From: Candidatus Woesearchaeota archaeon
GTDB taxonomy: Archaea > Nanobdellota > Nanobdellia > Woesearchaeales > JABGXB01
DNA: 64,000 nt
Reading direction: 5' to 3'
Assembly (NCBI GenBank): GCA_018675975.1
Contig: JABGXB010000003.1
Coordinates: 267,821-331,820, forward strand
Part shown: positions 24,456 to 38,146 of the stretch, one piece after another
How the letters are laid out: every line of letters begins with the position of its first letter
Position numbering within the stretch: position 1 is the stretch's first letter
Notes under the pieces: model-generated
What the model was told of the DNA's origin: nothing
What the model saw: only the letters and a program-made list of their open reading frames with translations
Database searches by the model: none
Program-made: the position numbers and the translations under genes

Positions 24456-25112
24456 TTAAATATTATTTTTAGAATTATTATAAATATATTTTGCAGCATC
24501 CAAAAAATCTTTTGCAATAAAAATATCTCCTTTTAATTGTTCAACTTTTTGTCTATCTCCTAGTTCTCTTGTTTTATAACTTTCAACTAAAATTCCAGTT
24601 CCTCCAATATTTAAACCCATTTGAACGTCAGAAAAACGATCCCCAATCATATAAATTTTACAATCTTCTTTTTTTACATTTAAATCAGTTAATGCTTTTT
24701 CAATCATACCAATATTTGGTTTTAAATCAAGACAGTTTTCTCTAATATATTTTTGATCTACTCTTCTTCCTTTTTCTAGTGCTTTTTTTACATAATTAGA
24801 ATCAACAAATGGACATGCATAATAATGATCAACTAAAGCTTCTTCATCTCTTAATTTATCTAAAATATATCTATTTACTTCATGCATTCTCTCAAAGGTT
24901 AAATTATCAAAATTTCCTCCTTCAAGTGCAACTCCAGATTGATTAGTTAAAATAAAAAACCGTGAATTTGGAATCTGATTAATTAATTTAATTCCATCCA
25001 CAACACCATCTAAAAAACTAACTTGTTCACGCCAATTAGAACTACTACCTAAATAAAAATTTTTATCTAAATTTATAGTCCCATCCCTATCAGAAAAAAC
25101 TAAAGTATACAT
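24456..25112 (-). CDS. HAD-IIIA phosphatase (GmhB/HisB-N-like)
   Basis: Motif I FSDRDGTIN, motif II LTNQSG, motif III KPNIGM, and motif IV GDRFSD. Confidence 0.7.
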   Translation of the reverse strand: MYTLVFSDRDGTINLDKNFYLGSSSNWREQVSFLDGVVDGIKLINQIPNSRFFILTNQSGVALEGGNFDNLTFERMHEVNRYILDKLRDEEALVDHYYACPFVDSNYVKKALEKGRRVDQKYIRENCLDLKPNIGMIEKALTDLNVKKEDCKIYMIGDRFSDVQMGLNIGGTGILVESYKTRELGDRQKVEQLKGDIFIAKDFLDAAKYIYNNSKNNI

Positions 25113-28658: not shown

Positions 28659-28736
28659 TAATTATAGTATATGATTTTATCTATATAATTTATTACATAA
28701 AATAACTTTATATAATAATTAACCAAAATAAATAGT

Positions 28737-29189
28737 ATGGATGAAAATATAATTAAACAAAGAATAATTCAACATACCTTATCACACGCTGATGAATATA
28801 GAGGTTATTTAACTCATTCAGGATTATTTCATTTAACAAATAATTTAGAATTAATTGGAAAATATCCTAGTGGAAGATTATTTCAAGGATTTTTAGTTGA
28901 TATTCTTGCTAATGAAATTAAACCTATATCTAATACAAACAAATCTCCTTTTTTGTCTTATCAAGTTAAAAAATTAAAACCAAATAATTTTGAATCTTTA
29001 ATTCTATCAGGAAAATATACTTTATCATATGACCCTGAAAAAAAAATGGTTTATTTAAAATCTAGAGAAATTGAAAAAGTAGAAAATATGAATGCATTAA
29101 GAAATGAAGAATTTTATAGATTATCTGCAGGAATGATGGGTTATAAAAATGACATTAATCCAATGATTAAAATATTATTTGAAGAATAA
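28737..29189 (+). CDS. Hypothetical protein (first gene of the ThyX/ParB-like/kinase cluster)
   Basis: A 150 aa intact ORF with a TATA-like ctttatataat at 28706-28716. No recognised family. Confidence 0.5.
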   Translation: MDENIIKQRIIQHTLSHADEYRGYLTHSGLFHLTNNLELIGKYPSGRLFQGFLVDILANEIKPISNTNKSPFLSYQVKKLKPNNFESLILSGKYTLSYDPEKKMVYLKSREIEKVENMNALRNEEFYRLSAGMMGYKNDINPMIKILFEE

Positions 29190-29273
29190 AAAATTAAATT
29201 TAAAATATAGATTTTAAAATTACAAAATACTTATAATAAATTTGAACTCATTTAAAATAAAAAAGGTGTATAT

Positions 29274-31034
29274 ATGAATTATCAAATGAAGAATTTTTCC
29301 ACTGAGCAAACTGAATTATTAAGATCATTTCTTTTTACAGCTCCACATAGTAATGTAAGTTTAATTTATCCACAACAATTAGTTGCAGGTGAAGAACTAG
29401 CCCCATTAATTTCAGCATATTCAAGAAGCAATCAACCACTTCAAGAAAGAGTATTAGAATTTGTTGATAAACAAAAAAATACAGAAGCTAAAGCACTATT
29501 ACCACATTTACCAGAATTAATGAAAACATTTAGAAATGAAGATGGTTCATTAAAAATTAGTAAAAAAACAAGAAACTTTTCTAAAAAATGGGTTCTTGCG
29601 CACGGTCACAGTTCAATAAAAGAAATGAATTCTATTTTTGGATGTGTTGAAGGAATTTCAGACATTTGTGGAAAATTAATTACTGGACATCCTTTAGCCC
29701 ACCCTCAAGTTAAGTCATCAAGATATATTTCTTTTGAAGATACATTAGATATGGCATTAGTAGATCCAGACATTCAAAACTTATCTTGTTCAAATGAAAT
29801 TATAGAACATTTAAAAGAATTAAATACAGAATATCTTAATGCAACTAAATATTTAGCAAATGCAGTATTTAAATCTGAAGAAACTGATCAAATAAGAGAA
29901 TTTTTAACTCGAGACTCAGTATTAGATATGCATGGTGAAAAATTATTTAATCGTGCTAAAAAAAAAGATCCAGAATTAGTAAAAACTGACACATTAATAG
30001 AAGAATTAAAATCACAGGCTTATGAAAATATAAATAGTGATGAGTATGTAATGGGACAACTTGAAAAATTTGTTCTTGATAGAAGTAGAGTATATTTACC
30101 TGGTTCAACTAGAACAAGTTTAGGTTTTATGATTGATGGTAGAACATGTGAAGAAATCATTACAACATTATTAACTAGTCCTTTAATAGAAGCCCAAAGT
30201 TTTGGTAATCAAATTTGGACTGAAACAAAAAAAATCTCACCTGTTTTATTAGGAGATCAATCCCATATTAAAAAAGATGAATGGAAATATGAGTTAGATA
30301 CGGACTTTAGAAAAGAATTAGCTACACGATTAGATTATATTGTCATGCACTCTGAACAAAAATTTGGAAGAGTTTATTCACCAAGCTTTGTACATTCAAG
30401 AGGAGAAGATACAAGATCTGCAGTTATGGCTGCATATAAATATAGTGATTTTTCTTTTGATGATTTAATAGAACAATTAAAAGAAAAAGATGTTAAATGG
30501 ATTTTAGATAGAACTCACGAACATAGAAATAAATTTGATCAATTACATGAAAGTGGTGGTCATGGTGGTATGCTTACTGAAATGACTATGCCATATCATG
30601 GTTATAGAGATATGTTTAGACATAGAAAAGGAGCAAGATCTAATCAATTATATACAACAGTTCACGGTTTTGAAAATGTTGAAATTTTTAATCATTTTGA
30701 TATAAATTCAAGATATGAATTATTAATGAATAAAAATAATGAATTATTTAGAAAAGCAGCAAAAGAAAATCCCCATGCTGCACAAAAAGTTGTTGCCTTT
30801 GGTCAATTATGTAGAGCAGCACACAGTTGGTCATTAGAACAAATTGGATATATTGCAAGAATAAGAGCGAATATTGAAACCGGAAATATTAGTTATGTAA
30901 AAACTGTTCATCAAATTGTAGATGGTGTAAAAAGATTATCACCACAATTAGCATCAAAAATAAATTATAATCAAGAAATGTTTCCAGAACATATTTGGAA
31001 AGAAGGTTATGATTTATTTAGAAGTAAAAAATAA
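29274..31034 (+). CDS. thyX: Long-form (tandem-fold) ThyX-like flavin-dependent thymidylate synthase
   Basis: Motifs YSRS and HGHSSIKE (compare ThyX HGHxxxxEH) in the first half. The first half reads GHPLAHPQVKSSRY (SxRY kept, RHR lost). The second half reads FRHRKGARSNQ (RHR kept) and AHSWSLEQIGYIARIR. An AGGTG Shine-Dalgarno lies at 29264-29268. Confidence 0.7.
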   Translation: MNYQMKNFSTEQTELLRSFLFTAPHSNVSLIYPQQLVAGEELAPLISAYSRSNQPLQERVLEFVDKQKNTEAKALLPHLPELMKTFRNEDGSLKISKKTRNFSKKWVLAHGHSSIKEMNSIFGCVEGISDICGKLITGHPLAHPQVKSSRYISFEDTLDMALVDPDIQNLSCSNEIIEHLKELNTEYLNATKYLANAVFKSEETDQIREFLTRDSVLDMHGEKLFNRAKKKDPELVKTDTLIEELKSQAYENINSDEYVMGQLEKFVLDRSRVYLPGSTRTSLGFMIDGRTCEEIITTLLTSPLIEAQSFGNQIWTETKKISPVLLGDQSHIKKDEWKYELDTDFRKELATRLDYIVMHSEQKFGRVYSPSFVHSRGEDTRSAVMAAYKYSDFSFDDLIEQLKEKDVKWILDRTHEHRNKFDQLHESGGHGGMLTEMTMPYHGYRDMFRHRKGARSNQLYTTVHGFENVEIFNHFDINSRYELLMNKNNELFRKAAKENPHAAQKVVAFGQLCRAAHSWSLEQIGYIARIRANIETGNISYVKTVHQIVDGVKRLSPQLASKINYNQEMFPEHIWKEGYDLFRSKK

Positions 31035-31066
31035 AAAAAAAAGAATAATAAAAAAGAGGTTAGTAA

Positions 31067-31696
31067 ATGAATTTAAGTATATATAGTGAGATTCCAATGC
31101 ATCAAGTTATTGAAGAAGTTAGAAAATCCCCTATGTTAAAATCTGATACTCAATTTCCTTACAAAAATGCAAATATTAGTTTACGTAATGTCGGTATGGG
31201 TGAAATTAATCCAACAAGTTTATATGCATTAAAAGCTAATTTGGATTTTCAAAAAAACTTAAGAGAATATATATTAAATAGATTTGGTTTTGATACATTA
31301 AGATTAAGTTCTGGTCTTATATTAGAAAATAAAGATGGGGAGCGTCAAACATTAATACCTCCTATAGTTGAAGTATCAGAAAGAGAAGTTAAGTTCATTC
31401 CACAAAAAGATGAATTATCATATGAAAATTCATATAAAATAAAAATACCGTGTTTACTTGATGGTATTCATCGCGCACTATGTGCAAAAGAATTAGGTAT
31501 AGATTTAAATGTAATTTTTATTTATGATTCAGATACCAATTATCCTGTTTATGCACATCCAAATGAATGGGATTTAGTTAAAATTTGTGATAGTATACCA
31601 AAAGAAAAAAGTCAAAAAAAAATGTATTTAAGAGATGATCATTCTAGTTTGTATAAATCATTTGCACACTTAGGTTCAAGTGGTCTTAGAAAATGA
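31067..31696 (+). CDS. ParB/sulfiredoxin-fold (ParB N-terminal domain-like) protein
   Basis: Signature LIPPIVEV...IPCLLDGIHRALCAKELGIDLNVIFI, matching the DGxHR core of ParB-NTD-like domains. Its stop overlaps the next start (ATGA). Confidence 0.6.
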   Translation: MNLSIYSEIPMHQVIEEVRKSPMLKSDTQFPYKNANISLRNVGMGEINPTSLYALKANLDFQKNLREYILNRFGFDTLRLSSGLILENKDGERQTLIPPIVEVSEREVKFIPQKDELSYENSYKIKIPCLLDGIHRALCAKELGIDLNVIFIYDSDTNYPVYAHPNEWDLVKICDSIPKEKSQKKMYLRDDHSSLYKSFAHLGSSGLRK

Positions 31697-32850
31697 GTAA
31701 TTTAGTTTTAGTTGAAGGAATAAGTGGAGCTGGTAAAAGTACAGCAATTAATTTTATTCAATCTTATCTTTCAACATTCAATATTCAAAGTCACACATTT
31801 AATGAACCCGGTCATATGCGAGATGAAATTAAAAAATATCATAATAGAGAAGACAGAGATCTTCAATTAGAATTTGATCATTATGTTTTATCCAGAAAAG
31901 TTGATTTACATCATAAAGTAATGCCAACTATAAAAAATCACCCAAAGGATACTATCCTCATTGATCGAAGTTGGATTTCTACAATGGTTTATCAACAAAC
32001 AGAACAATGTCCAATGATAAATATTCGTGATTATCATTCCTTTTATCCCAAACACAATTTAGCATTACTCTTAATTTGTGATCCTGAAACTGCATATCAA
32101 AGAATTTTAAAAAGAAAAGAAACTCAAGGAATAGAATTAAGTACATCTGAAAATCCAAAAAGAATTGCTGAACTTAGAAAAAGTTATATTGAAGCATTTG
32201 ATTTAGTAGATTATTCTGTAATTATTAATACTGATGGAAGTGAAAATGCAGTTAATTGTATTTTAAAATCTTATATGAATAAATTATTAGGAATTAAAGA
32301 AAAAAAAATTGTTTTTTTAGATAAAGATGGTACTTTAGTTGACAATTCTAAATATCCAGAAGTAATTCCAACGGATGAAATTCTTTTTGCAGATACATTA
32401 GAAGGATTATATAAATTAAAAAGTGCAGGATATGAATTTCATATGATTTCTTCTCAACCATGGGTTGCTAAAGGTCAATTAAGTTTAGATCAAACAAATG
32501 AAATTTTTGAAAGTGTTATAGAACAATATAAAAAATATGGAATTGAATTTACTGGATATGGTTTTTGTGAACATCATAGAAGTGATAATTGTCCAGATAA
32601 AAAACCAAATACAGGTTTATTAGAACAAATAGCAACTCAACAAAATATTGATATTTCTCAAAGCTTTTTTATAGGAGATATGGAATCGGATATTGAATGC
32701 GGTTATAATTTTGGATTACAAACTGGATTAGTAACTAAATATTCAAATGCAAAAACAATAGATAATTTATCTCAACAAAGATTTAAAAGAACTCCAAATT
32801 ATACTGCAATTAATTTGAATGAAATTGCAAATCAAATAATTGAAAATTAA
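31693..32850 (+). CDS. Fusion protein: thymidylate-kinase-like P-loop kinase (N-terminal) plus HAD-IIIA phosphatase (C-terminal)
   Basis: The N-terminal half has VEGISGAGKST, NEPG and LIDRSWISTMVYQQ (Tmk-like). From about residue 205 it has FLDKDGTLV, ISSQP, CEHHRSDNCPDKKPNTG and IGDMESD (GmhB/PNK-3'-phosphatase-type HAD). Confidence 0.75.
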   Translation: MSNLVLVEGISGAGKSTAINFIQSYLSTFNIQSHTFNEPGHMRDEIKKYHNREDRDLQLEFDHYVLSRKVDLHHKVMPTIKNHPKDTILIDRSWISTMVYQQTEQCPMINIRDYHSFYPKHNLALLLICDPETAYQRILKRKETQGIELSTSENPKRIAELRKSYIEAFDLVDYSVIINTDGSENAVNCILKSYMNKLLGIKEKKIVFLDKDGTLVDNSKYPEVIPTDEILFADTLEGLYKLKSAGYEFHMISSQPWVAKGQLSLDQTNEIFESVIEQYKKYGIEFTGYGFCEHHRSDNCPDKKPNTGLLEQIATQQNIDISQSFFIGDMESDIECGYNFGLQTGLVTKYSNAKTIDNLSQQRFKRTPNYTAINLNEIANQIIEN

Positions 32851-33025
32851 TATTTGTTAATTATATTAATTAAAAAAACTAAATTGTTTTTTTTTTGTAA
32901 AAAGAGTTCGAACGTTAATTCCTTACATTTGAATTTAATGAATATATAAAAACAAAAAAACAATATAATTCACTAAGCAGATAAAACAAAACATTATAAA
33001 GCAAATGTATCTATAAAAATAATAC

Positions 33026-33041
33026 ACACTAGGAATAGTGT
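33026..33041 (+). promoter_or_regulatory. Candidate NrdR box 1 (palindrome acactaggaatagtgt)
   Basis: A 16 bp site with perfect inverted ACACTA/TAGTGT arms that resembles the NrdR-box consensus as I remember it (acaCwAtATaTwGtgt). It lies just downstream of a TATA-like ctataaaa (33011-33018) in the 304 bp region upstream of nrdR. Confidence 0.5.
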
Positions 33042-33154: not shown

Positions 33155-33604
33155 ATGAAATGCCCACATTGTAATTCAGATGATTTGAAAGTAAATGAAA
33201 CAAGAGAAACAGAATCAAATAGTTTTAGAAGAAGAAGAGAATGCAATAATTGTGAAGAAAGATTTACTACATATGAAAAAATTCAAGAATTATTAATTAG
33301 TGTAAAAAAAGAAAGTGGAAAATTAGAAAATTATACTAAAGAAAAATTAGAAAAAAGTTTTTTGATTGCTTGTAATAAAAGACCAATAACAAGAATTCAA
33401 ATATTAAAAATTATTGAAAACATTGAAAATAAAATAAGAAATAATTTTAAAAATGAAATTTCATCTAAGACATTAGGTGAATATGTAATGGAAGAATTAA
33501 AAATTTTAGATCCAATATCATATATTAGATATGCTTCAGTATACAAAGATTTTGATGATTTAGATAAATTTAATCAAGAATTAATATTATTAAAGGTGAA
33601 TTGA
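33155..33604 (+). CDS. nrdR: Transcriptional repressor NrdR
   Basis: N-terminal zinc ribbon CPHC...CNNC with ERFTTYE, followed by an ATP-cone. About 150 aa. It sits immediately upstream of the RNR gene. Confidence 0.9.
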   Translation: MKCPHCNSDDLKVNETRETESNSFRRRRECNNCEERFTTYEKIQELLISVKKESGKLENYTKEKLEKSFLIACNKRPITRIQILKIIENIENKIRNNFKNEISSKTLGEYVMEELKILDPISYIRYASVYKDFDDLDKFNQELILLKVN

Positions 33605-36600
33605 ATGGAACAAAGTATTGAAACAAAACGAACTGGTATAAAAGTTAAAAAAGTTTTTTGTAGTGATAATATAAGCCCATTTGAAACTGTTGAATTTGAA
33701 AACAGATCAAGTGTGATAAAAAATAGAGATGGTTCTATATTATTTGAAATAAATAATATTCATGCTCCAAAAAAATGGTCGCAAGTTGCCGTAGATATAA
33801 TGGCACAAAAATATTTTAGAAAAAGTGGAGTTCCACAATATGATGAAAATCAAAATGAAATTAAAGATGAATTTTCAAATATAATTACAGGTTCAGAAAC
33901 AGATATTACTCAACCAATAAAAAGATTAACTGGATGTTGGAGACATTGGGGAGAAAAATATAATTATTTTGATACGCAACAAGATGCAATTAATTTTGAA
34001 CAAGAAATACAATATATGTTATTACATCAAATCGCTGCACCAAATAGTCCACAATGGTTTAATACGGGACTTAAATGGGCATATAATATTTCTGGAAGTG
34101 CACAAGGACATTATTATGCTGAACATGAAACAGGTGAAATTAAATTATCTGAGGATGCATATTCAAGACCTCAACCGCATGCATGTGCGGATTATTATAC
34201 ACAAGTGTATACTGATAAGGGTACAATGTATATTGGAGATATAGTTGAAAATAATTTAACTAATATAAAAGTATTTGATGGAGAAAAATATGTAAAAGTT
34301 CTTGCAATCAAAAACAATGGAAAAAAAGAAGTGTTTAAAATTCAATTAAAAAATGGAAATTATATTAAATTAACTCAAGATCATTTAGTGCTATCATCAC
34401 AAAAAAGAAAAAAAAATGGTGGAAATTATAACTGGAATTATGTAAAAGATGTAAAATTAGGTCACAAATTACAACAACCATTAATTCTAGATATTAAAGA
34501 AAAAAATGTATTTAGTGATGATTTAGCAAAAGCAAGATTAGCCGGTTGGATAGTTGGAGACGGATCAGTTGGAATTTATGAAAATGTAATGAGATTGGAA
34601 ATTATTTCTATTAAAGAAGAAGAATTTGAATCAATAATAAATGATATTCAAGAAGTATTTGGACAAGAAGTTAATTTTTGGATTAGTAAATTTAAAACAA
34701 AAAACGAAAATTTAGATGGTAAAAGAATTCATTTAGCAGGTAAAAAAATACATAAATTAATTGAAGACTATGATTTACTAAAATCTTCATTTAATGCAGA
34801 AGTACCTCAAAAAATAATTAATGGGTCACCACAAGAAAAAAGAGAATTTTTAAAAGCCTTATTTCAAGCAGATGGTTGTGTCAGAATTAGAAAAGATGAA
34901 AATAGAAATTCAGGAGATGTGTGTTTAACTACAATTTCAGAAAATCTTTCATTTGGAGTTTTACAATTATTAAATTCATTAGGTATTTATTGTAGAATTA
35001 ATAAATATAGTGATAAAAGAGAAAATCGAAAAGATGTTAATCAAGTTATAGTATCTTATGGTAGTGCAAGAGAACAATTTCAAGAACAAATTTCTTTTAT
35101 ATGTTCTCAAAAAACCGAAAAATTAGAATTATTAAATAAAATTATAACAAAATCAAAAACACTTCCATTAATAAGAGAAGAAACAATTATTTCAATTGAA
35201 TCTGAAGGCATTAAAGATGTTTATGATATTCAAACAGAATCTTCAAAATTTCTTGGAAATGGAATTGTAATACATAATTGTTTTATTCAATCAGTTAAAG
35301 ATGATTTAGTTAATCAAGGTGGAATATTTGACCTTTGTACAAGAGAGGCAAGAATATTTAAATATGGTTCTGGAACTGGTTCAAATTTTTCACAATTAAG
35401 AGGTCAGTCTGAAAAATTATCAGGTGGTGGAAGATCTTCAGGTATGATGTCATTTTTAAAAATATTTGATGTGGCAGCTGGAGCAATTAAATCAGGTGGT
35501 ACAACAAGACGTGCAGCAAAAATGGTTTGTCTTGATTTGGATCATCCAGAAATTATTGAATTTATTGATTGGAAAGCAAATGAAGAAAAAAAAGTTGCTA
35601 ATTTAATTACTGGTTCAAAAAATTCAAAATATCATTTACAAAAAATATTAAAAGAAGCAAGTTCAAATTCAAATATAGAAAAAAATCCAAAATTAAAATC
35701 AGCAATTAAAGAAGCTATTGAACAAAATATTTCTTTAAATTATATTGATAGAGTTTTAAAACTTGCAAATCAAGGAATAACTGAATTTGAAACTCCCGAG
35801 TTTGATAATCATTTTGAAGGTGAAGCATATTCTACAGTTAGTGGACAAAATTCAAATAATTCAATAAGAATACCAAATTCATTTTATGAAGCTGTTCATA
35901 AAGACTTAGATTGGAATTTAAAAAATAGAACTGATGGAAAAATTTCAAAAACTGTAAGAGCAAAATGGCTTTATGATAAAATTGGACAAGCTGCTTGGGC
36001 TTGTGCAGATCCTGGTGTTCAATTTGATACGACAATTAATGAATGGCATACATGTCCAAAAGATGGAAGAATTAATGCAAGTAATCCTTGTTCTGAATAT
36101 ATGTTTTTAGATGATACTGCATGTAATTTAGCTAGTATTAATTTAATTCATTTTATTAATGATAGTGGACATTTTAATGAAGAAAAATTTGCTCATGCAT
36201 GTGAACTTATGACAATTGTTTTGGAAATTTCAGTTACTATGGCTCAATTTCCAAGTGATGAAATTGCAAAAAGAAGTTGGGAATATAGAACATTAGGTTT
36301 AGGTTTTGCAAATTTAGGGACATTACTCATGGTTAAAGGAATTTCTTATGATAGTGATGAAGCTAGAAGTATAGCTGGAGGAATTAGTGCCATAATGTGT
36401 GGAACTGCTTATGAAACATCTGCTAAACTCGCAAAACATCTAGGACCTTTTAACAGATATGAACATAATAAAGATGACATGTTAAGAGTTATTAGAAATC
36501 ATAGACGTGCTGCATATAATGTTTCAAATGAAGAGTATGAAAAATTAGAAATTACTCCAGTTGGCATTGATGAAAATTTATGTCCAAATAATATTTTACA

Positions 36601-38146
36601 AAAAGCTAGAAATTCATGGGATAATGCACTTGAACTTGGACAAGAATATGGATTTAGAAATGCACAAGTAACTGTTATTGCACCAACCGGAACTATTGGA
36701 CTTTTAATGGATTGTGATACTACAGGAGTTGAGCCAGACTTTGCAATTGTTAAATATAAAAAACTTGCAGGCGGTGGTTATTTTAAAATTGTAAATCATT
36801 CAGTTATTAAAGCATTGAGAACTTTAGGTTATGAAAAAGATCAAATTATTGATATTAAAAAATATTGTATAGGTCATCAAACATTAGTGGGTTGTCCAAC
36901 CATAAATCATAAAATTTTAAAAGATAAAGGATTTGATGAAGAAAAATTAGAACTTATTGAAAAACAATTAGAAACTGCATTTGATTTGAGTTTTGTTATG
37001 AATAAAAATATTTTAAGTGAAGAATTTTTAAAAAAATTAGGATTTAGTGATGAACAATTAAATTCTGAAATGTTTGATTTACTAGAAGAATTAAAATTTA
37101 CAAAAGAACAAGTTGATATTGCAAATGAATATGTTTTTGGAACAATGACAGTTGAAGATGCTCCATACTTATTAGAAGAACATTATTCAGTTTTTGATTG
37201 TGCAAATAAATGTGGAAAAAAAGGTAATAGATATATTGACACTTATGGACATATTAATATGATGGCAGCAGTTCAACCTTTTATTTCTGGTGCAATTAGT
37301 AAAACAATTAATATGGATTCAGAAGTTAGTGTTAAAGATATTTTAGATGCTTATGAAGCTAGTTGGAAATTAATGCTTAAAGCAAATGCATTATATAGAG
37401 ATGGATGTAAATTAAGTCAACCATTAAATACTGCTGTTTTTGAAAGTGAATACAATTTAAATTTATCTGAAGAAGATATTGATGAAACAGTTGATTCAGC
37501 AGCAATTCAACAACAAATTCAAACAATGAAAGCAAATCAGTTGCCGAGAAAAAGAGGTGGTTTTGTTCAAGAAGCAACTGTTGCAGGTCACAAAATATAT
37601 TTAAGAACTGGTGAATATAATGACGGAAAATTAGGTGAAATTTTTATTGACATGTATAAGGAAGGTGCTGCCTTTAAAGCACTAATAAATTGTTTTGCAG
37701 TTGCAATAAGTAAATCTCTACAATTTGGTGTTCCTTTAGAAGAATTTGTTGAACAGTTTACATTTACTAGATTTGAACCGGCAGGTTTAGTAACTGGACA
37801 TGAATATATTAAAAATTCTACGTCAATATTAGATTATGTATTTCGTGTTCTAGGCTATGAATATTTAGGTAGAGATGATTTAATTCATGTAAAACCTAAA
37901 AGAAAACCACTAGACATTATAGAACATGAAGATGATCCAAGAGATAAACATAAAACACTAGATAGTTTTTCTAATAGAAAAAATGTAGAAGAGACTAGAA
38001 ACGAAATGCTTTTTAAAAAAATTAATACTGCCAAATCAAGAGGATATACTGGAGAAGCATGTGGTTCTTGTGGTAGTATGAGAGTAAAAAGAAATGGAAG
38101 TTGTACACTTTGTGAAGATTGTGGTTCTACTAGTGGTTGCAGTTAG
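33605..38146 (+). CDS. nrdJ: Class II (adenosylcobalamin-dependent) ribonucleotide reductase, interrupted in frame by one intein
   Basis: Blocks [24 protein letters not shown] active-site region, [27 protein letters not shown], and a C-terminal Cys-rich tail CGSCGS...CTLCEDCG. The protein is 1513 aa including the 365 aa intein. Confidence 0.9.
34184..35278 (+). mobile_element. Intein with LAGLIDADG homing-endonuclease domain inside nrdJ
   Basis: It begins with Cys (PQPHA|CADYY) and ends with HN followed by Cys (GIVIHN|CFIQSV). The two LAGLIDADG blocks are [11 protein letters not shown] (34538-34570) and [11 protein letters not shown] (34850-34882). Removing the insert restores the conserved HACFIQSV extein sequence. 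Confidence 0.85.

What the first reader, a model, noticed from the sequence alone, without database searches (positions are those of the whole stretch)
28737..32850. ThyX-long / ParB-Srx-fold / kinase-phosphatase operon: candidate uncharacterised thymidylate- or DNA-linked system
Seen in sequence: four same-strand genes sit with gaps of 84, 32 and -4 bp. TATA-like words lie at 28706-28716 and 29230-29239, and an AGGTG Shine-Dalgarno at 29264-29268. The genes are a 150 aa orphan, a 586 aa tandem ThyX-like protein, a 209 aa protein with the ParB-NTD/sulfiredoxin signature (LIPPIVEV ... LLDGIHRALCAKELG), and a 385 aa fusion of a Tmk-like P-loop kinase to a HAD-IIIA phosphatase.

Established knowledge: ThyX and Tmk are consecutive steps toward dTTP. 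ParB-NTD-fold proteins are nucleotide-binding, nuclease or DNA-associated modules that recur in DNA-modification and defence loci (for example DndB-type proteins). Phage thymidine hypermodification pathways combine a thymidylate-synthase homologue with a P-loop nucleotide or DNA kinase.

Inference: plain dTTP supply does not explain a ParB-like gene translationally coupled (ATGA) to a kinase-phosphatase, or the conserved-looking orphan in front. The module might act on DNA or on a modified pyrimidine nucleotide. Together with the adjacent nrdR-nrdJ it forms a ~10 kb deoxynucleotide supercluster of the kind viruses carry.
Basis: partly seen in the sequence, partly recalled or inferred. Interest (0 to 1): 0.7.

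Follow-up and report, generated by a model that had tools for sequence, protein, structure and literature searches.

The report
Thymidylate operon with uncharacterised ParB-fold enzyme
A tiny symbiotic archaeon keeps its thymidine-building genes (a double-length ThyX and a thymidylate kinase fused to a phosphatase) in one operon with an uncharacterised ParB/sulfiredoxin-fold protein; the same partnership recurs across related archaea, bacteria and some phages, pointing to an unrecognised enzyme of DNA-precursor metabolism rather than a DNA-binding or defence protein.

Summary
They are a tandem ThyX, a ParB/Srx-fold protein (Pfam ParB-CE, PF24392) and a Tmk::HAD-IIIA fusion.

Of 17 informative DPANN loci that carry the long ThyX, 15 have thyX-parB-tmk in this order, and 14 of those 15 also carry a HAD phosphatase. 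That HAD is either fused to Tmk or supplied as a separate gene from an unrelated HAD subfamily.

Bacterial and phage relatives of the ParB-like protein sit beside dCMP deaminase, HAD and a methanogen-type ThyA fused to a pterin-binding domain. Elsewhere the domain is fused to HAD, HD or NUDIX hydrolases. The conserved unit is therefore a pyrimidine-deoxynucleotide module built around a catalytic, nucleotide-directed ParB-fold protein.

Not supported:
- The 150-aa orphan is species-specific.
- The nrdR-nrdJ adjacency is mostly not conserved.
- The TATA words are no more frequent than chance.
- There is no sign of DNA-directed, defence or viral origin.

My best model is that HAD plus ParB-CE set the phosphorylation state of dC/dU nucleotides to feed dUMP to ThyX, and Tmk then makes dTDP. 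A kinase or a regulator role remains open.

The parts
28737..29189 (+). 150-aa lineage-specific ORF upstream of thyX. Probably a real gene, but not part of the conserved module.
   Evidence: ORF. No Pfam, NCBIfam, PHROG, PADLOC or PDB hit. Singleton 90% cluster found only in this Woesearchaeota species. No homologue in 19 related loci.
29274..31034 (+). thyX-long: a 586-aa tandem (pseudo-dimeric) flavin-dependent thymidylate synthase homologue. The N half keeps H..S.RY (H139, S148, R150, Y151). The C half keeps RHR (R449, H450, R451).
31055..31059 (+). GAGGT Shine-Dalgarno-like word 8 nt before the parB-like start codon.
   Evidence: Read directly from the sequence. Not tested statistically.
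31067..31696 (+). 209-aa ParB/sulfiredoxin-fold protein of the ParB-CE ('catalytic effector') family. Single domain, with no detected HTH. Conserved PPIVE and DGxHR motifs.
31693..32850 (+). tmk::HAD-IIIA fusion. Residues ~1-195 are a thymidylate-kinase domain (P-loop GISGAGKST, DRSW..S..VYQ). Residues ~203-385 are a HAD-IIIA phosphatase (DKDGT, GDMESD). The start overlaps the parB stop (ATGA).
   Evidence: PF02223 3.3e-17, TIGR00041 69.6 bits, TIGR01662 82.4 bits and TIGR01656 86.7 bits. PDB hits are Tmk 2pbr and HisB-N/GmhB. The same fusion occurs in L009, L010, L013, L019, L021, L022 and L118. Eight other loci have Tmk plus a separate, unrelated HAD.
32887..32896 (+). Run of 10 T located 37 nt after the tmk::HAD stop. 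Likely end of the transcription unit (archaeal oligo-T terminator; inference).
   Evidence: Read directly from the sequence. The following gap to nrdR is 304 bp.
33026..33041 (+). Perfect palindrome ACACTAGGAATAGTGT (NrdR-box-like) upstream of nrdR. It marks the neighbouring nrdR-nrdJ unit as separately regulated.
   Evidence: The only zero-mismatch match in the window, and none lies upstream of thyX.
33155..38146 (+). nrdR (33155-33604) and intein-containing class II ribonucleotide reductase nrdJ (33605-38146). A functionally related neighbour but a separate unit, and the adjacency is not conserved in most relatives.
   Evidence: Pfam hits. Absent from L006-L024 neighbourhoods. An RNR lies divergently next to the module in L118.

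Best explanation
This is a chromosomal housekeeping operon for the thymidylate branch of DNA-precursor synthesis in a DPANN (Woesearchaeota) archaeon. Its conserved core is four functions: tandem ThyX, a ParB-CE-family ParB/Srx-fold protein, Tmk and a HAD phosphatase.

**Shown**
- The gene identities.
- The conservation of the linkage.
- The ParB/Srx fold with an intact nucleotide-phosphate motif.
- The family's exclusive association with enzymes of free pyrimidine deoxynucleotides.

**Inferred mechanism**
- The ParB-like protein is a catalytic enzyme acting on free nucleotides, not on DNA.
- Together with the HAD phosphatase it strips the terminal phosphates from ribonucleotide-reductase products (dUTP/dUDP, dCTP/dCDP) to give the 5'-monophosphate.
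- ThyX, or dCMP deaminase in other lineages, needs that monophosphate.
- ThyX then methylates dUMP to dTMP, and the Tmk domain phosphorylates dTMP to dTDP.
- Gene overlaps and the alternative fusions (Tmk::HAD, ParB-CE::HAD) suggest the enzymes work as a complex that channels intermediates, much as the T4 dNTP-synthesis enzymes are thought to.

**Probabilities**
- ParB-CE acts catalytically on free pyrimidine deoxynucleotides around the dCMP/dUMP/dTMP node: about 0.7.
- The specific phosphoanhydride-hydrolase-with-HAD version: about 0.4.
For: 1. **Linkage in archaea.** 15 of 17 informative DPANN loci have thyX-long, then parB-CE, then tmk on one strand, often overlapping. ThyX identity is only 28-45%. 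L118 and L025 add further cases.
2. **A phosphatase is selected for, not inherited.** 14 of 15 loci have a HAD. It is either HAD-IIIA fused to Tmk or a stand-alone HAD with no BLASTP similarity to it. In L025 the HAD is fused to a second ParB-CE copy instead.
3. **Same logic with non-homologous enzymes in bacteria and phage contigs.** ParB-CE sits next to dCMP deaminase in 47 of 80 metagenome loci, next to HAD in 17, and next to methanogen-type ThyA::DUF4346 in 8. Several gene orders occur. dCMP deaminase also flanks the archaeal module in L009 and L019.
4. **Domain fusions.** ParB-CE is fused to HAD, HD or NUDIX phosphohydrolases. HD::ParB-CE sits next to HD::Tmk and NUDIX.
5. **Fold.** A high-confidence ParB/Srx model has its closest PDB matches among enzymes that transfer a nucleotide's terminal phosphate (SbnI, Srx, SerK). 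The family conserves DGxHR and an acidic PPIVE.
6. **Precedent.** In the PUA-Calcineurin-CE-HAD system, HAD converts dNTP to dNDP and the 'CE' partner converts dNDP to dNMP (bioRxiv 10.64898/2026.01.15.699771). UniRef calls the family 'ParB-like catalytic effector domain'. From memory, Nicastro et al. 2023 predicted nucleotide degradation for it.
7. **No mobile or defence context.** Neighbours are FtsZ, Spt5, CDC48 and SRP54. There are no PADLOC hits for ThyX or ParB-CE.
Against: - No biochemical data exist for any member of this clade, and hydrolase cannot be separated from kinase by sequence.
- L011 carries a canonical dUTPase (PF00692, 4.6e-25) right next to thyX-parB-tmk. ParB-CE is therefore not simply a dUTPase replacement there. 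That locus is also the only one without a HAD.
- L016 keeps thyX-HAD-tmk without ParB-CE, so the protein is dispensable in at least one lineage or is encoded elsewhere.
- A phosphatase fused to a kinase of the same pathway risks a futile cycle unless specificities are tight.
- The 80 bacterial loci are phylogenetically clustered, so the counts overstate the number of independent events.
- I could not check whole genomes for dut, dcd, tdk or ndk.
Confidence: 0.4

Rival explanations
1. ParB-CE is a phosphotransferase. It would be either a pyrimidine deoxynucleoside kinase (dC/dU to dCMP/dUMP, a salvage entry for nucleotide-auxotrophic DPANN) or an NDP-kinase-like enzyme (dTDP to dTTP). The HAD would be the opposing 5'-nucleotidase of a pool-regulating substrate cycle.
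For: - A dC/dU kinase would explain adjacency to dCMP deaminase, thymidylate synthases and Tmk equally well.
- Both stand-alone HADs weakly resemble pyrimidine 5'-nucleotidases (YjjG, PynA and Pyr-5-nucltdase models).
- The same operons contain kinase-phosphohydrolase fusions (Tmk::HAD, HD::Tmk).
- Coexistence with a canonical dUTPase in L011 fits a non-redundant kinase role.
Against: - Similarity to the kinases is at fold level only (10-20% identity, ~95 aligned residues).
- The NDP-kinase version does not explain the two-gene dCMP deaminase-ParB-CE operons.
- Fusions to NUDIX and HD are easier to read as consecutive hydrolytic steps.
- The family was named and predicted as a nucleotide-degrading effector (Nicastro et al. 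2023, from memory).
Confidence: 0.25
2. ParB-CE is a non-metabolic NTP-binding switch. It would be a dCTP/dTTP sensor that activates or inhibits the neighbouring enzyme (ThyX, ThyA-like protein, dCMP deaminase), in the way a phage ParB-like protein activates its T-dioxygenase.
For: - ParB folds are CTP, ATP or GTP switches (PMC12704722).
- Phage ParB-like proteins are obligate activators of 5mYOX thymine dioxygenases (PMC13229309).
- dCMP deaminase is classically regulated by dCTP and dTTP (textbook knowledge).
- The genes overlap tightly with their partners.
Against: - The partners belong to three unrelated folds (ThyX, ThyA-like, deaminase), which argues against a specific protein-protein regulator.
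- Fusions to hydrolases, and strong conservation of acidic and basic catalytic-type residues (E102, D132, H135, R136), fit an enzyme better.
Confidence: 0.12
3. One reading: the module acts on DNA or makes a modified pyrimidine. For example, ThyX-long would be a hydroxymethylase, the ParB-fold protein would phosphorylate or target the modified base, and the kinase-phosphatase would act on polynucleotide ends like PNKP.
For: - The enzyme set (TS homologue, nucleotide phosphohydrolase, dNMP kinase, phosphatase, sometimes dCMP deaminase) mirrors that of phages with hypermodified pyrimidines (textbook knowledge of T4, SPO1 and PBS2).
- The bacterial-type module occurs on some viral contigs.
- Kinase followed by HAD is the T4 Pnkp domain order, and there is a borderline PNK3P hit of 24.6 bits against a cut-off of 22.
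- SerK and SbnI phosphorylate a -CH2OH group.
Against: - ThyX-long is the thymidylate synthase homologue found broadly across DPANN and retains the ThyX motif residues split over its two halves.
- The kinase domain has Tmk motifs and best matches Tmk in PDB and NCBIfam. The PNK-3'Pase model scores 25 against a cut-off of 502.8.
- No canonical ParB DNA-binding domains were detected by Pfam in the 209-aa single-domain model.
- No glycosyltransferase, aminotransferase, nuclease, methylase or dnd genes are linked.
Confidence: 0.06
4. The cluster is a defence island or a virus-derived cassette in which ParB-CE is a nucleotide-depleting immune effector.
For: - PF24392 was defined from immune-system effectors (name; Nicastro et al. 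2023, from memory).
- The Tmk domain weakly matches PADLOC candidates PDC-M51B and VakA.
- Patatin-like genes precede many bacterial dCMP deaminase-ParB-CE pairs.
Against: - The housekeeping flanks, lack of a composition anomaly, and near-universal presence next to the ThyX homologue of these genomes argue against it.
- No sensor, STAND, CARF or effector partners occur in the window.
- ThyX-long is absent from IMG/VR, and the ParB-like protein is absent from GenBank phages and BFVD.
Confidence: 0.03

Closest known systems
ParB-CE ('ParB-like catalytic effector') domain, Pfam PF24392 (Nicastro, Burroughs, Iyer & Aravind, NAR 2023; paper not readable here)
   Same: The 209-aa protein scores 54 bits against a cut-off of 23. 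It shares the PPIVE and DGxHR core with bacterial members. It has the same predicted substrate class, free nucleotides.
   Different: Here it is not in an immune system. It is a single-domain protein inside a conserved housekeeping thyX-tmk operon of DPANN archaea. Whether the 2023 paper already noted this housekeeping context could not be checked.
PUA-Calcineurin-CE-HAD anti-phage system (bioRxiv 10.64898/2026.01.15.699771)
   Same: A 'CE' phosphoesterase is paired with a HAD phosphatase. There, HAD converts dNTP to dNDP and the CE converts dNDP to dNMP. That is the reaction scheme proposed here for HAD plus ParB-CE.
   Different: The catalytic fold differs (calcineurin-like rather than ParB/Srx). 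That system is sensor-gated and destructive. This one has no sensor, and its product would be used constructively by ThyX and Tmk.
Free serine kinases SerK and SbnI, and sulfiredoxin (ParB/Srx-fold phosphotransferases)
   Different: Identity is only 10-20% over ~95 residues. There is no sequence-level family match. The gene context is nucleotide metabolism, not cysteine, siderophore or peroxiredoxin metabolism.
Canonical ParB, Noc and KorB CTP-dependent DNA clamps
   Different: No PF02195 hit. No HTH or C-terminal dimerisation domain detected by Pfam. No parA or parS context.
Standard dut/dcd-thyX-tmk route to dTTP, and the T4 set gp56 dCTPase/dUTPase, cd, gp42/td and gp1 (textbook knowledge)
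   Same: The same pathway logic: make the pyrimidine dNMP, convert it at C5, then re-phosphorylate it.
   Different: The dNMP-supplying step would be done by a ParB-fold protein plus a HAD instead of a dUTPase-fold enzyme. One relative (L011) has both.
Tandem ThyX of Tunturiibacter jumbo phage Tunturi_5 (gp50, PP885688.1)
   Same: It is collinear with ThyX-long over both halves (E 1e-15). It shows the same split of motifs, S.RY in the N half and RHR in the C half. A dCMP deaminase lies upstream.
   Different: Identity is only 22% over the BLASTP alignment. There is no ParB-CE, Tmk or HAD next to it, and a canonical dUTPase lies nearby.
Phage ParB-like activators of thymine dioxygenases (PNAS 2026, PMC13229309)
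   Same: A ParB-fold protein genetically coupled to an enzyme that acts on the thymine C5 position.
   Different: Those act on DNA after replication, with Fe/2OG dioxygenases. Here all partners act on free nucleotides before replication.
T4 Pnkp and mammalian PNKP (P-loop kinase plus HAD 3'-phosphatase)
   Same: The 385-aa protein has a P-loop kinase followed by a HAD-IIIA phosphatase in one chain. There is a borderline PF08645 hit.
   Different: The kinase domain is Tmk-like (DRx motif, Tmk PDB hits). The PNK-3'Pase equivalog scores 25 against a cut-off of 502.8.

Membership tests
ThyX (flavin-dependent thymidylate synthase) | Pfam Thy1 domain above the gathering threshold | tested here: met
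   PF02511: 40 bits against a cut-off of 24.8, residues 96-324.
ThyX (flavin-dependent thymidylate synthase) | NCBIfam equivalog TIGR02170 above its cut-off | tested here: not met
   26.9 bits against a cut-off of 87.9. The family is too divergent or too long for the equivalog model.
ThyX (flavin-dependent thymidylate synthase) | ThyX fold | tested here: met
ThyX (flavin-dependent thymidylate synthase) | RHRxxS...S.RY signature (motif recalled from the literature) | tested here: inconclusive
   The motif is split. GHP...S148-x-R150-Y151 lies in the N half and R449-H450-R451 in the C half. Both parts are invariant in 57 sequences. This is compatible with a pseudo-dimer, but activity is untested.
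ThyX (flavin-dependent thymidylate synthase) | dUMP to dTMP activity with FAD, NADPH and CH2-THF | not testable with these tools
   Needs an enzyme assay or thyA complementation.
ParB/Srx superfamily | ParB/Srx alpha+beta fold | tested here: met
ParB/Srx superfamily | Phosphate-binding (D)GxHR/GxxR motif | tested here: met
   D132-G133-I-H135-R136. R136 is invariant and the other three are at least 90% conserved in 81 sequences.
Canonical ParB (chromosome or plasmid partition CTPase clamp) | ParBc (PF02195) match plus HTH DNA-binding and C-terminal dimerisation domains, with a parA/parS context | tested here: not met
   The only Pfam hit is PF24392. The protein is a 209-aa single-domain model. 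No parA lies in the neighbourhood.
ParB-CE (PF24392) | Profile match above the gathering threshold | tested here: met
   54.4 bits against a cut-off of 23, profile positions 2-144 of 147. The precomputed annotation gives the same hit.
ParB-CE (PF24392) | Effector position in an immune or conflict system | tested here: not met
   Housekeeping operon. No PADLOC hit. No sensor or NTPase partners.
ParB-CE (PF24392) | Nucleotide-degrading activity | not testable with these tools
   A prediction only. No assay data were found in the searchable literature.
Thymidylate kinase (Tmk) | Pfam Thymidylate_kin domain with P-loop and DR(Y/x) motif | tested here: met
   PF02223: 63.2 bits against a cut-off of 27. 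GISGAGKST and IDRSWISTMVYQ are read from the translation. PDB hits are Tmk 2pbr and 5xbh.
Thymidylate kinase (Tmk) | NCBIfam equivalog TIGR00041 above its cut-off | tested here: not met
   69.6 bits against a cut-off of 83.25. The unfused orthologue in L007 scores the same, 69.8.
HAD-IIIA phosphatase | TIGR01662 / TIGR01656 domain above cut-off, with DxDxT and GDxxxD motifs | tested here: met
   82.4 bits against 44.6, and 86.7 against 84.15. LDKDGTL and GDMESD are in the translation.
GmhB / HisB-N (specific HAD-IIIA enzymes; the NCBI and JGI names of this protein) | Equivalog score | tested here: not met
   GmhB NF006506 scores 89.7 against 178. hisB_Nterm scores 75.9 against 140. The public annotation 'heptose 1,7-bisphosphate phosphatase' is not supported by context.
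Polynucleotide kinase-phosphatase (PNKP / T4 Pnkp) | PNK-3'Pase equivalog; a kinase domain of the PNK type | tested here: not met
   TIGR01663 scores 25 against a cut-off of 502.8. The kinase domain is Tmk-like.
Phage thymidine-hypermodification / Dnd-type DNA modification loci | Linked DNA-modifying enzymes (5-HMUDK plus transferases, or dndACDE and restriction partners) | tested here: not met
   None among the neighbours in the window or in 19 related loci. ThyX-long is absent from IMG/VR.

The most novel reading that the evidence does not exclude
The ParB/Srx-fold protein is the founding housekeeping member of a new enzyme class in pyrimidine deoxynucleotide metabolism. It has been recruited independently next to both non-homologous thymidylate synthase types (ThyX in DPANN, methanogen-type ThyA::pterin-binding in bacteria and phages). 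In the most radical version the module does not simply make dTTP. It would produce or process a non-canonical C5-substituted pyrimidine nucleotide (for example a 5-hydroxymethyl-dU derivative phosphorylated on its CH2OH by a SerK-like ParB-fold kinase), so that these DPANN archaea and the related phages carry modified thymidine. The radical (modified-base) version has probability ~0.06. The milder 'new housekeeping enzyme class' version is ~0.6 and would deserve ~0.65.
Probability: 0.06. Interest if true: 0.9.

Novelty: new variant of a known kind. Interest (0 to 1): 0.6.

Why it matters
- **Archaeal metabolism.** DPANN archaea have minimal genomes and depend on hosts for nucleotides. How they balance their dTTP supply in ~23% GC genomes is unknown.
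- **A possible missing step.** A strictly conserved, uncharacterised catalytic protein sits between ThyX and Tmk. This suggests the textbook dUMP to dTMP to dTDP route has an unrecognised step or control point in these organisms.
- **A general link.** Relatives of the same protein sit next to dCMP deaminase and an unrelated thymidylate-synthase type in bacteria and phages, so the functional link is general.
- **Origin of an immune effector.** The result would give the ParB/sulfiredoxin fold a housekeeping role in free-nucleotide metabolism. That would explain where the 'ParB-CE' immune effectors came from.
- **Annotation.** The fusion protein is currently named a heptose-bisphosphate phosphatase, which the context does not support.
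- **Testability.** The hypothesis can be tested directly with four small soluble proteins.

Tried and rejected
- The word-indexed homology search with the ParB-like protein found nothing. Only the exhaustive HMMER search recovered the family.
- Sequence searches against PDB with the ParB-like protein, its 81-sequence profile, ThyX-long and its profile gave no meaningful hits. Only fold comparison worked.
- PHROGs and PADLOC gave nothing for the orphan or for ParB-CE. PADLOC also gave nothing for ThyX-long, which had one weak PHROG thymidylate-synthase hit (E 0.0011). The Tmk domain gave only weak PADLOC hits.
- hhalign of the N half against the C half of ThyX-long was not significant. The tandem nature rests instead on the phage homologue with two Thy1 stretches.
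- The AFDB50 fold library was unavailable. BFVD gave no hit at E<=1e-3.
- The viral scan with the full ParB alignment failed for lack of a conserved stretch.
- ThyX-long is absent from IMG/VR. ParB-CE is absent from GenBank phages by tblastn.
- Literature: 'ParB-CE' retrieved only ParB-Cerulean and ParB-centromere papers. Searches for PRTase-CE, Calcineurin-CE with ParB, DUF4346, and ThyX with ParB returned nothing. Nicastro et al. 2023 is not held. The 2025 ParB-CTPase survey does not mention thymidylate, deaminase or NUDIX contexts.
- Promoter and terminator scans are uninformative for an archaeon, and sigma-70-like hits are at the chance level. The TATA word is not enriched.
- I considered ParB-CE as a straight dUTPase replacement and rejected it, because L011 has a canonical dUTPase beside the operon.
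- I considered the orphan as a module member and rejected it.
- I considered co-regulation of thyX by NrdR. No box lies upstream of thyX.

Full report
**Origin and setting.** The window matches contigs of a marine Candidatus Woesearchaeota MAG (GCA_018653045.1 and others). GC content is about 23% throughout, with no composition break at the locus. The flanking genes are housekeeping: CDC48, FKBP, FtsZ, Spt5, a ferredoxin, peptidase U32 and a wHTH protein.

**Observation.**
- The four + strand ORFs are at 28737-29189, 29274-31034, 31067-31696 and 31693-32850, with spacings of 84, 32 and -4 bp.
- The A/T-rich 'TATA' words and the AGGTG are present. A GAGGT precedes the third gene.
- TTTATATA is under-represented rather than enriched in the window, 19 against 35 expected. 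The promoter assignment is therefore unverifiable.
- A run of ten T follows the last gene.
- Domain calls are confirmed. The second protein hits Pfam Thy1, the third hits only PF24392 'ParB-CE', and the fourth hits Tmk plus HAD-IIIA. The first protein matches nothing.

**ThyX-long.**
- The 586-aa protein belongs to a family of ~560-615-aa proteins found in Woese-, Pace-, Nano- and Micrarchaeota MAGs.
- The two halves are not detectably similar to each other.
- The only GenBank-phage hit, Tunturiibacter jumbo phage Tunturi_5 gp50 (518 aa), has two Pfam Thy1 stretches. It aligns collinearly with residues 96-563 (E 1e-15).
- The N-half profile hits gp50 residues 43-226, and the C-half profile hits 313-504 (E 1.5e-34).
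- The invariant residues are split. H139, S148, R150 and Y151 are in the N half, and R449, H450 and R451 are in the C half.
- By my recollection of the ThyX signature (RHRxxS...S.RY), this is what a fused pseudo-dimer with complementary degeneration would look like. That interpretation is an inference.

**The ParB-like protein.**
- A word-indexed search found nothing. An exhaustive HMMER search found 392 cluster representatives (117 at E<=1e-10), mostly ~200 aa.
- With 81 of them as an alignment, AlphaFold gives pLDDT 97.4.
- Conserved columns are Y32, Y53, D76, P98-P99-x-x-E102, D132-G133-x-H135-R136, W168 and a basic residue at 197.
- No HTH or other second domain was detected by Pfam.
- UniRef names the family 'ParB-like catalytic effector domain'.
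- From memory, the name comes from Nicastro et al. 2023, who predicted nucleotide-degrading immune effectors. That paper could not be read here.

**Is the linkage conserved?** Yes.
- A scan of one genome per GTDB species with the ThyX-long profile returned 19 loci with 28-45% ThyX identity. My ORF calling plus phmmer gave the neighbourhoods.
- Two loci are truncated. Of the other 17, 15 have thyX, then the parB-like gene, then tmk on one strand, frequently with overlapping stop and start codons.
- One locus (L023) has the parB-like gene nearby on the other strand. One (L016) has thyX-HAD-tmk without it.
- In six of the loci Tmk is fused to HAD-IIIA, as in the window. In eight loci Tmk is ~210 aa and is followed by a separate ~215-aa HAD hydrolase. 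That HAD has no BLASTP similarity to the HAD-IIIA domain.
- In L025 a second ParB-CE copy is itself fused to a HAD and is followed by Tmk. L118 repeats thyX-long, ParB-CE and Tmk::HAD next to a divergently transcribed RNR.
- A phosphatase has therefore been recruited in at least three ways into the same operon. The conserved unit is ThyX + ParB-CE + Tmk + HAD.
- The orphan, nrdR and nrdJ have no counterparts in the 19 loci. The orphan is a singleton cluster.

**Wider context of the family.**
- Fused forms combine ParB-CE with HAD, HD or NUDIX domains.
- One locus has HD::ParB-CE, HD::Tmk, an unknown gene and a NUDIX gene in a row.
- In bacteria, ParB-CE lies beside enzymes of the same metabolic node that are non-homologous to the archaeal ones:
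  - In Catellatospora the order is ThyA-like::DUF4346, HAD, ParB-CE, a 1003-aa ParB-CE protein, ThyA, DHFR and HIT, with a dCMP deaminase opposite.
  - In a 4.7-Mb genome ParB-CE is followed by ThyA-like::DUF4346.
  - In Desulfomonilaceae a dCMP deaminase overlaps ParB-CE.
- The ThyA-like protein best matches the methanogen-type thymidylate synthase model TIGR03283. It also carries an MtrA-like pterin-binding C-terminus.
- A metagenome scan found 431 relatives. In the best 80 loci, ParB-CE is adjacent to dCMP deaminase in 47, HAD in 17 and ThyA-like::DUF4346 in 8, in at least four different gene orders.
- These loci are phylogenetically clustered, so the counts are not independent events.
- The same four-gene set occurs on a 286-kb IMG/VR contig. 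A lone ParB-CE occurs on a contig with a phage portal gene.
- Around the archaeal operon, some relatives add a P-loop-kinase::dCMP deaminase (L009, L019), a NUDIX-like gene (L010, L020), a CARF/Csa3-like wHTH regulator (L013, L023) or a canonical dUTPase (L011).

**Mechanism.**
- Every partner consumes or produces a pyrimidine deoxynucleoside 5'-monophosphate: dCMP deaminase, two unrelated thymidylate-synthase types and Tmk.
- Every fusion partner is a phosphohydrolase of small phosphoesters or anhydrides.
- The ParB/Srx fold's known chemistry is transfer of a nucleotide's terminal phosphate to water or to an acceptor (PMC12704722; PMC5512222).
- I therefore infer that ParB-CE acts catalytically on free pyrimidine deoxynucleotides at the dCMP/dUMP/dTMP node (probability ~0.7).
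- The favoured specific version (~0.4) is that it works with the HAD phosphatase to dephosphorylate reductase products to dUMP or dCMP.
- This follows the experimentally shown division of labour in PUA-Calcineurin-CE-HAD, where HAD converts dNTP to dNDP and the CE domain converts dNDP to dNMP.
- The main rival (~0.25) is a phosphotransferase, such as a deoxynucleoside kinase. This is favoured slightly by the SbnI/SerK/Srx structural neighbours, by weak similarity of the stand-alone HADs to pyrimidine 5'-nucleotidases, and by coexistence with a canonical dUTPase in L011.
- L011 is also the only locus without a HAD. That is a single observation and remains unexplained.
- An NTP-switch regulator, like the phage ParB-like activators of thymine dioxygenases, is possible (~0.12). 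It fits poorly with three unrelated partner folds.

**What it is not.**
- It is not a canonical ParB. There is no PF02195 hit, no HTH and no parA.
- It is not a Dnd or restriction locus, and not a recognisable defence system.
- It is not virus-like.
- The fusion protein is not a PNKP. By context it is not the heptose-bisphosphate phosphatase its public name suggests.
- The nrdR-nrdJ unit is a functionally related neighbour. It is separated by a T-run and a 304-bp spacer carrying a perfect NrdR-box-like palindrome, which is absent upstream of thyX.

**Novelty and verdict.**
- The components belong to known families, and ParB-CE already has a Pfam entry.
- No experimental characterisation, and no description of the thyX-ParB-CE-tmk-HAD operon, was found in the searchable literature.
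- The one paper likely to mention it could not be read.
- I rate this a new variant of a known kind: a thymidylate operon with an uncharacterised, conserved ParB-fold enzyme. Interest is 0.6.
The link to thymidylate metabolism is real and conserved, while the DNA-directed, viral and orphan-gene elements are not supported.

Noticed in passing
window 33605-38146 (intein roughly 34180-35300): The class II ribonucleotide reductase NrdJ is interrupted by an intein with a LAGLIDADG homing-endonuclease domain (precomputed Pfam: Intein_splicing, LAGLIDADG_3). The RNR beside the module in L118 also carries an intein.
   Followed up: partly
window 33026-33041 and 33155-33604: A bacterial-type NrdR repressor (Zn-ribbon plus ATP-cone) is encoded in this archaeon. 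A perfect 16-bp palindrome ACACTAGGAATAGTGT lies 114 nt upstream of it. This is the only zero-mismatch match in 64 kb, and none lies upstream of thyX.
   Followed up: partly
L028 3684-5258; L030 6615-8066; L070, L073, L089-L091, L108, L113, L114, L116: Bacterial and phage-contig proteins of 480-525 aa combine a methanogen-type thymidylate synthase core (TIGR03283) with a C-terminal MtrA-like pterin-binding DUF4346 domain and an unassigned ~200-270-aa N-terminus. They are always near ParB-CE. No literature on DUF4346 was found.
   Followed up: partly
L033-L069 (e.g. L059 1424-2503): A ~359-aa protein with a sub-threshold patatin-like phospholipase match is conserved directly upstream of the dCMP deaminase-ParB-CE pair in 27 metagenome loci. 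This might indicate a different, possibly conflict-related, use of the pair in that bacterial lineage.
   Followed up: partly
L013 2632-3336; L023 2259-2984: A CARF/Csa3-like Rossmann domain plus wHTH protein (HFX_2341_N, Csa3_N) is inserted between thyX and the parB-like gene in L013 and sits next to the parB-like gene in L023. It is a candidate nucleotide-sensing regulator of the operon.
   Followed up: no
L009 6771-7907 (-); L019 11978-13232: A P-loop kinase fused to (L009) or followed by (L019) a dCMP deaminase flanks the archaeal thyX-parB-tmk::HAD operon. The architecture is reminiscent of AvcD-type kinase-deaminase proteins.
   Followed up: no
L011 7400-7837 (-): A canonical trimeric dUTPase lies divergently next to thyX-parB-tmk in the only related locus that lacks any HAD gene. 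This is a single case and is unexplained.
   Followed up: partly
L028 6655-9666: A 1003-aa Catellatospora protein has a ParB-CE domain only at residues ~824-937 and an unassigned 820-aa N-terminal region. It lies next to a stand-alone ParB-CE, HAD, two ThyA-type genes, DHFR and HIT.
   Followed up: no
window 24456-25112 (-): A second, stand-alone HAD-IIIA-type hydrolase (218 aa) lies 4 kb upstream. It is a paralogue of the HAD domain in the Tmk fusion (phmmer E 8.8e-10).
   Followed up: no
L120 (Tunturiibacter phage Tunturi_5, PP885688.1 46471-48027): A 309-kb jumbo phage encodes a 518-aa tandem ThyX preceded by a 320-aa dCMP deaminase carrying a carbohydrate-binding CBM_5_12 module, with a dUTPase nearby. 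Tandem ThyX proteins therefore exist in phages, although the DPANN-type profile found none in IMG/VR.
   Followed up: partly
window 31693-32850: Public annotation of the fusion protein as 'D-glycero-D-manno-heptose 1,7-bisphosphate phosphatase' or 'HAD-IIIA family hydrolase' ignores the N-terminal Tmk domain. It is probably a mis-annotation by domain transfer.
   Followed up: yes
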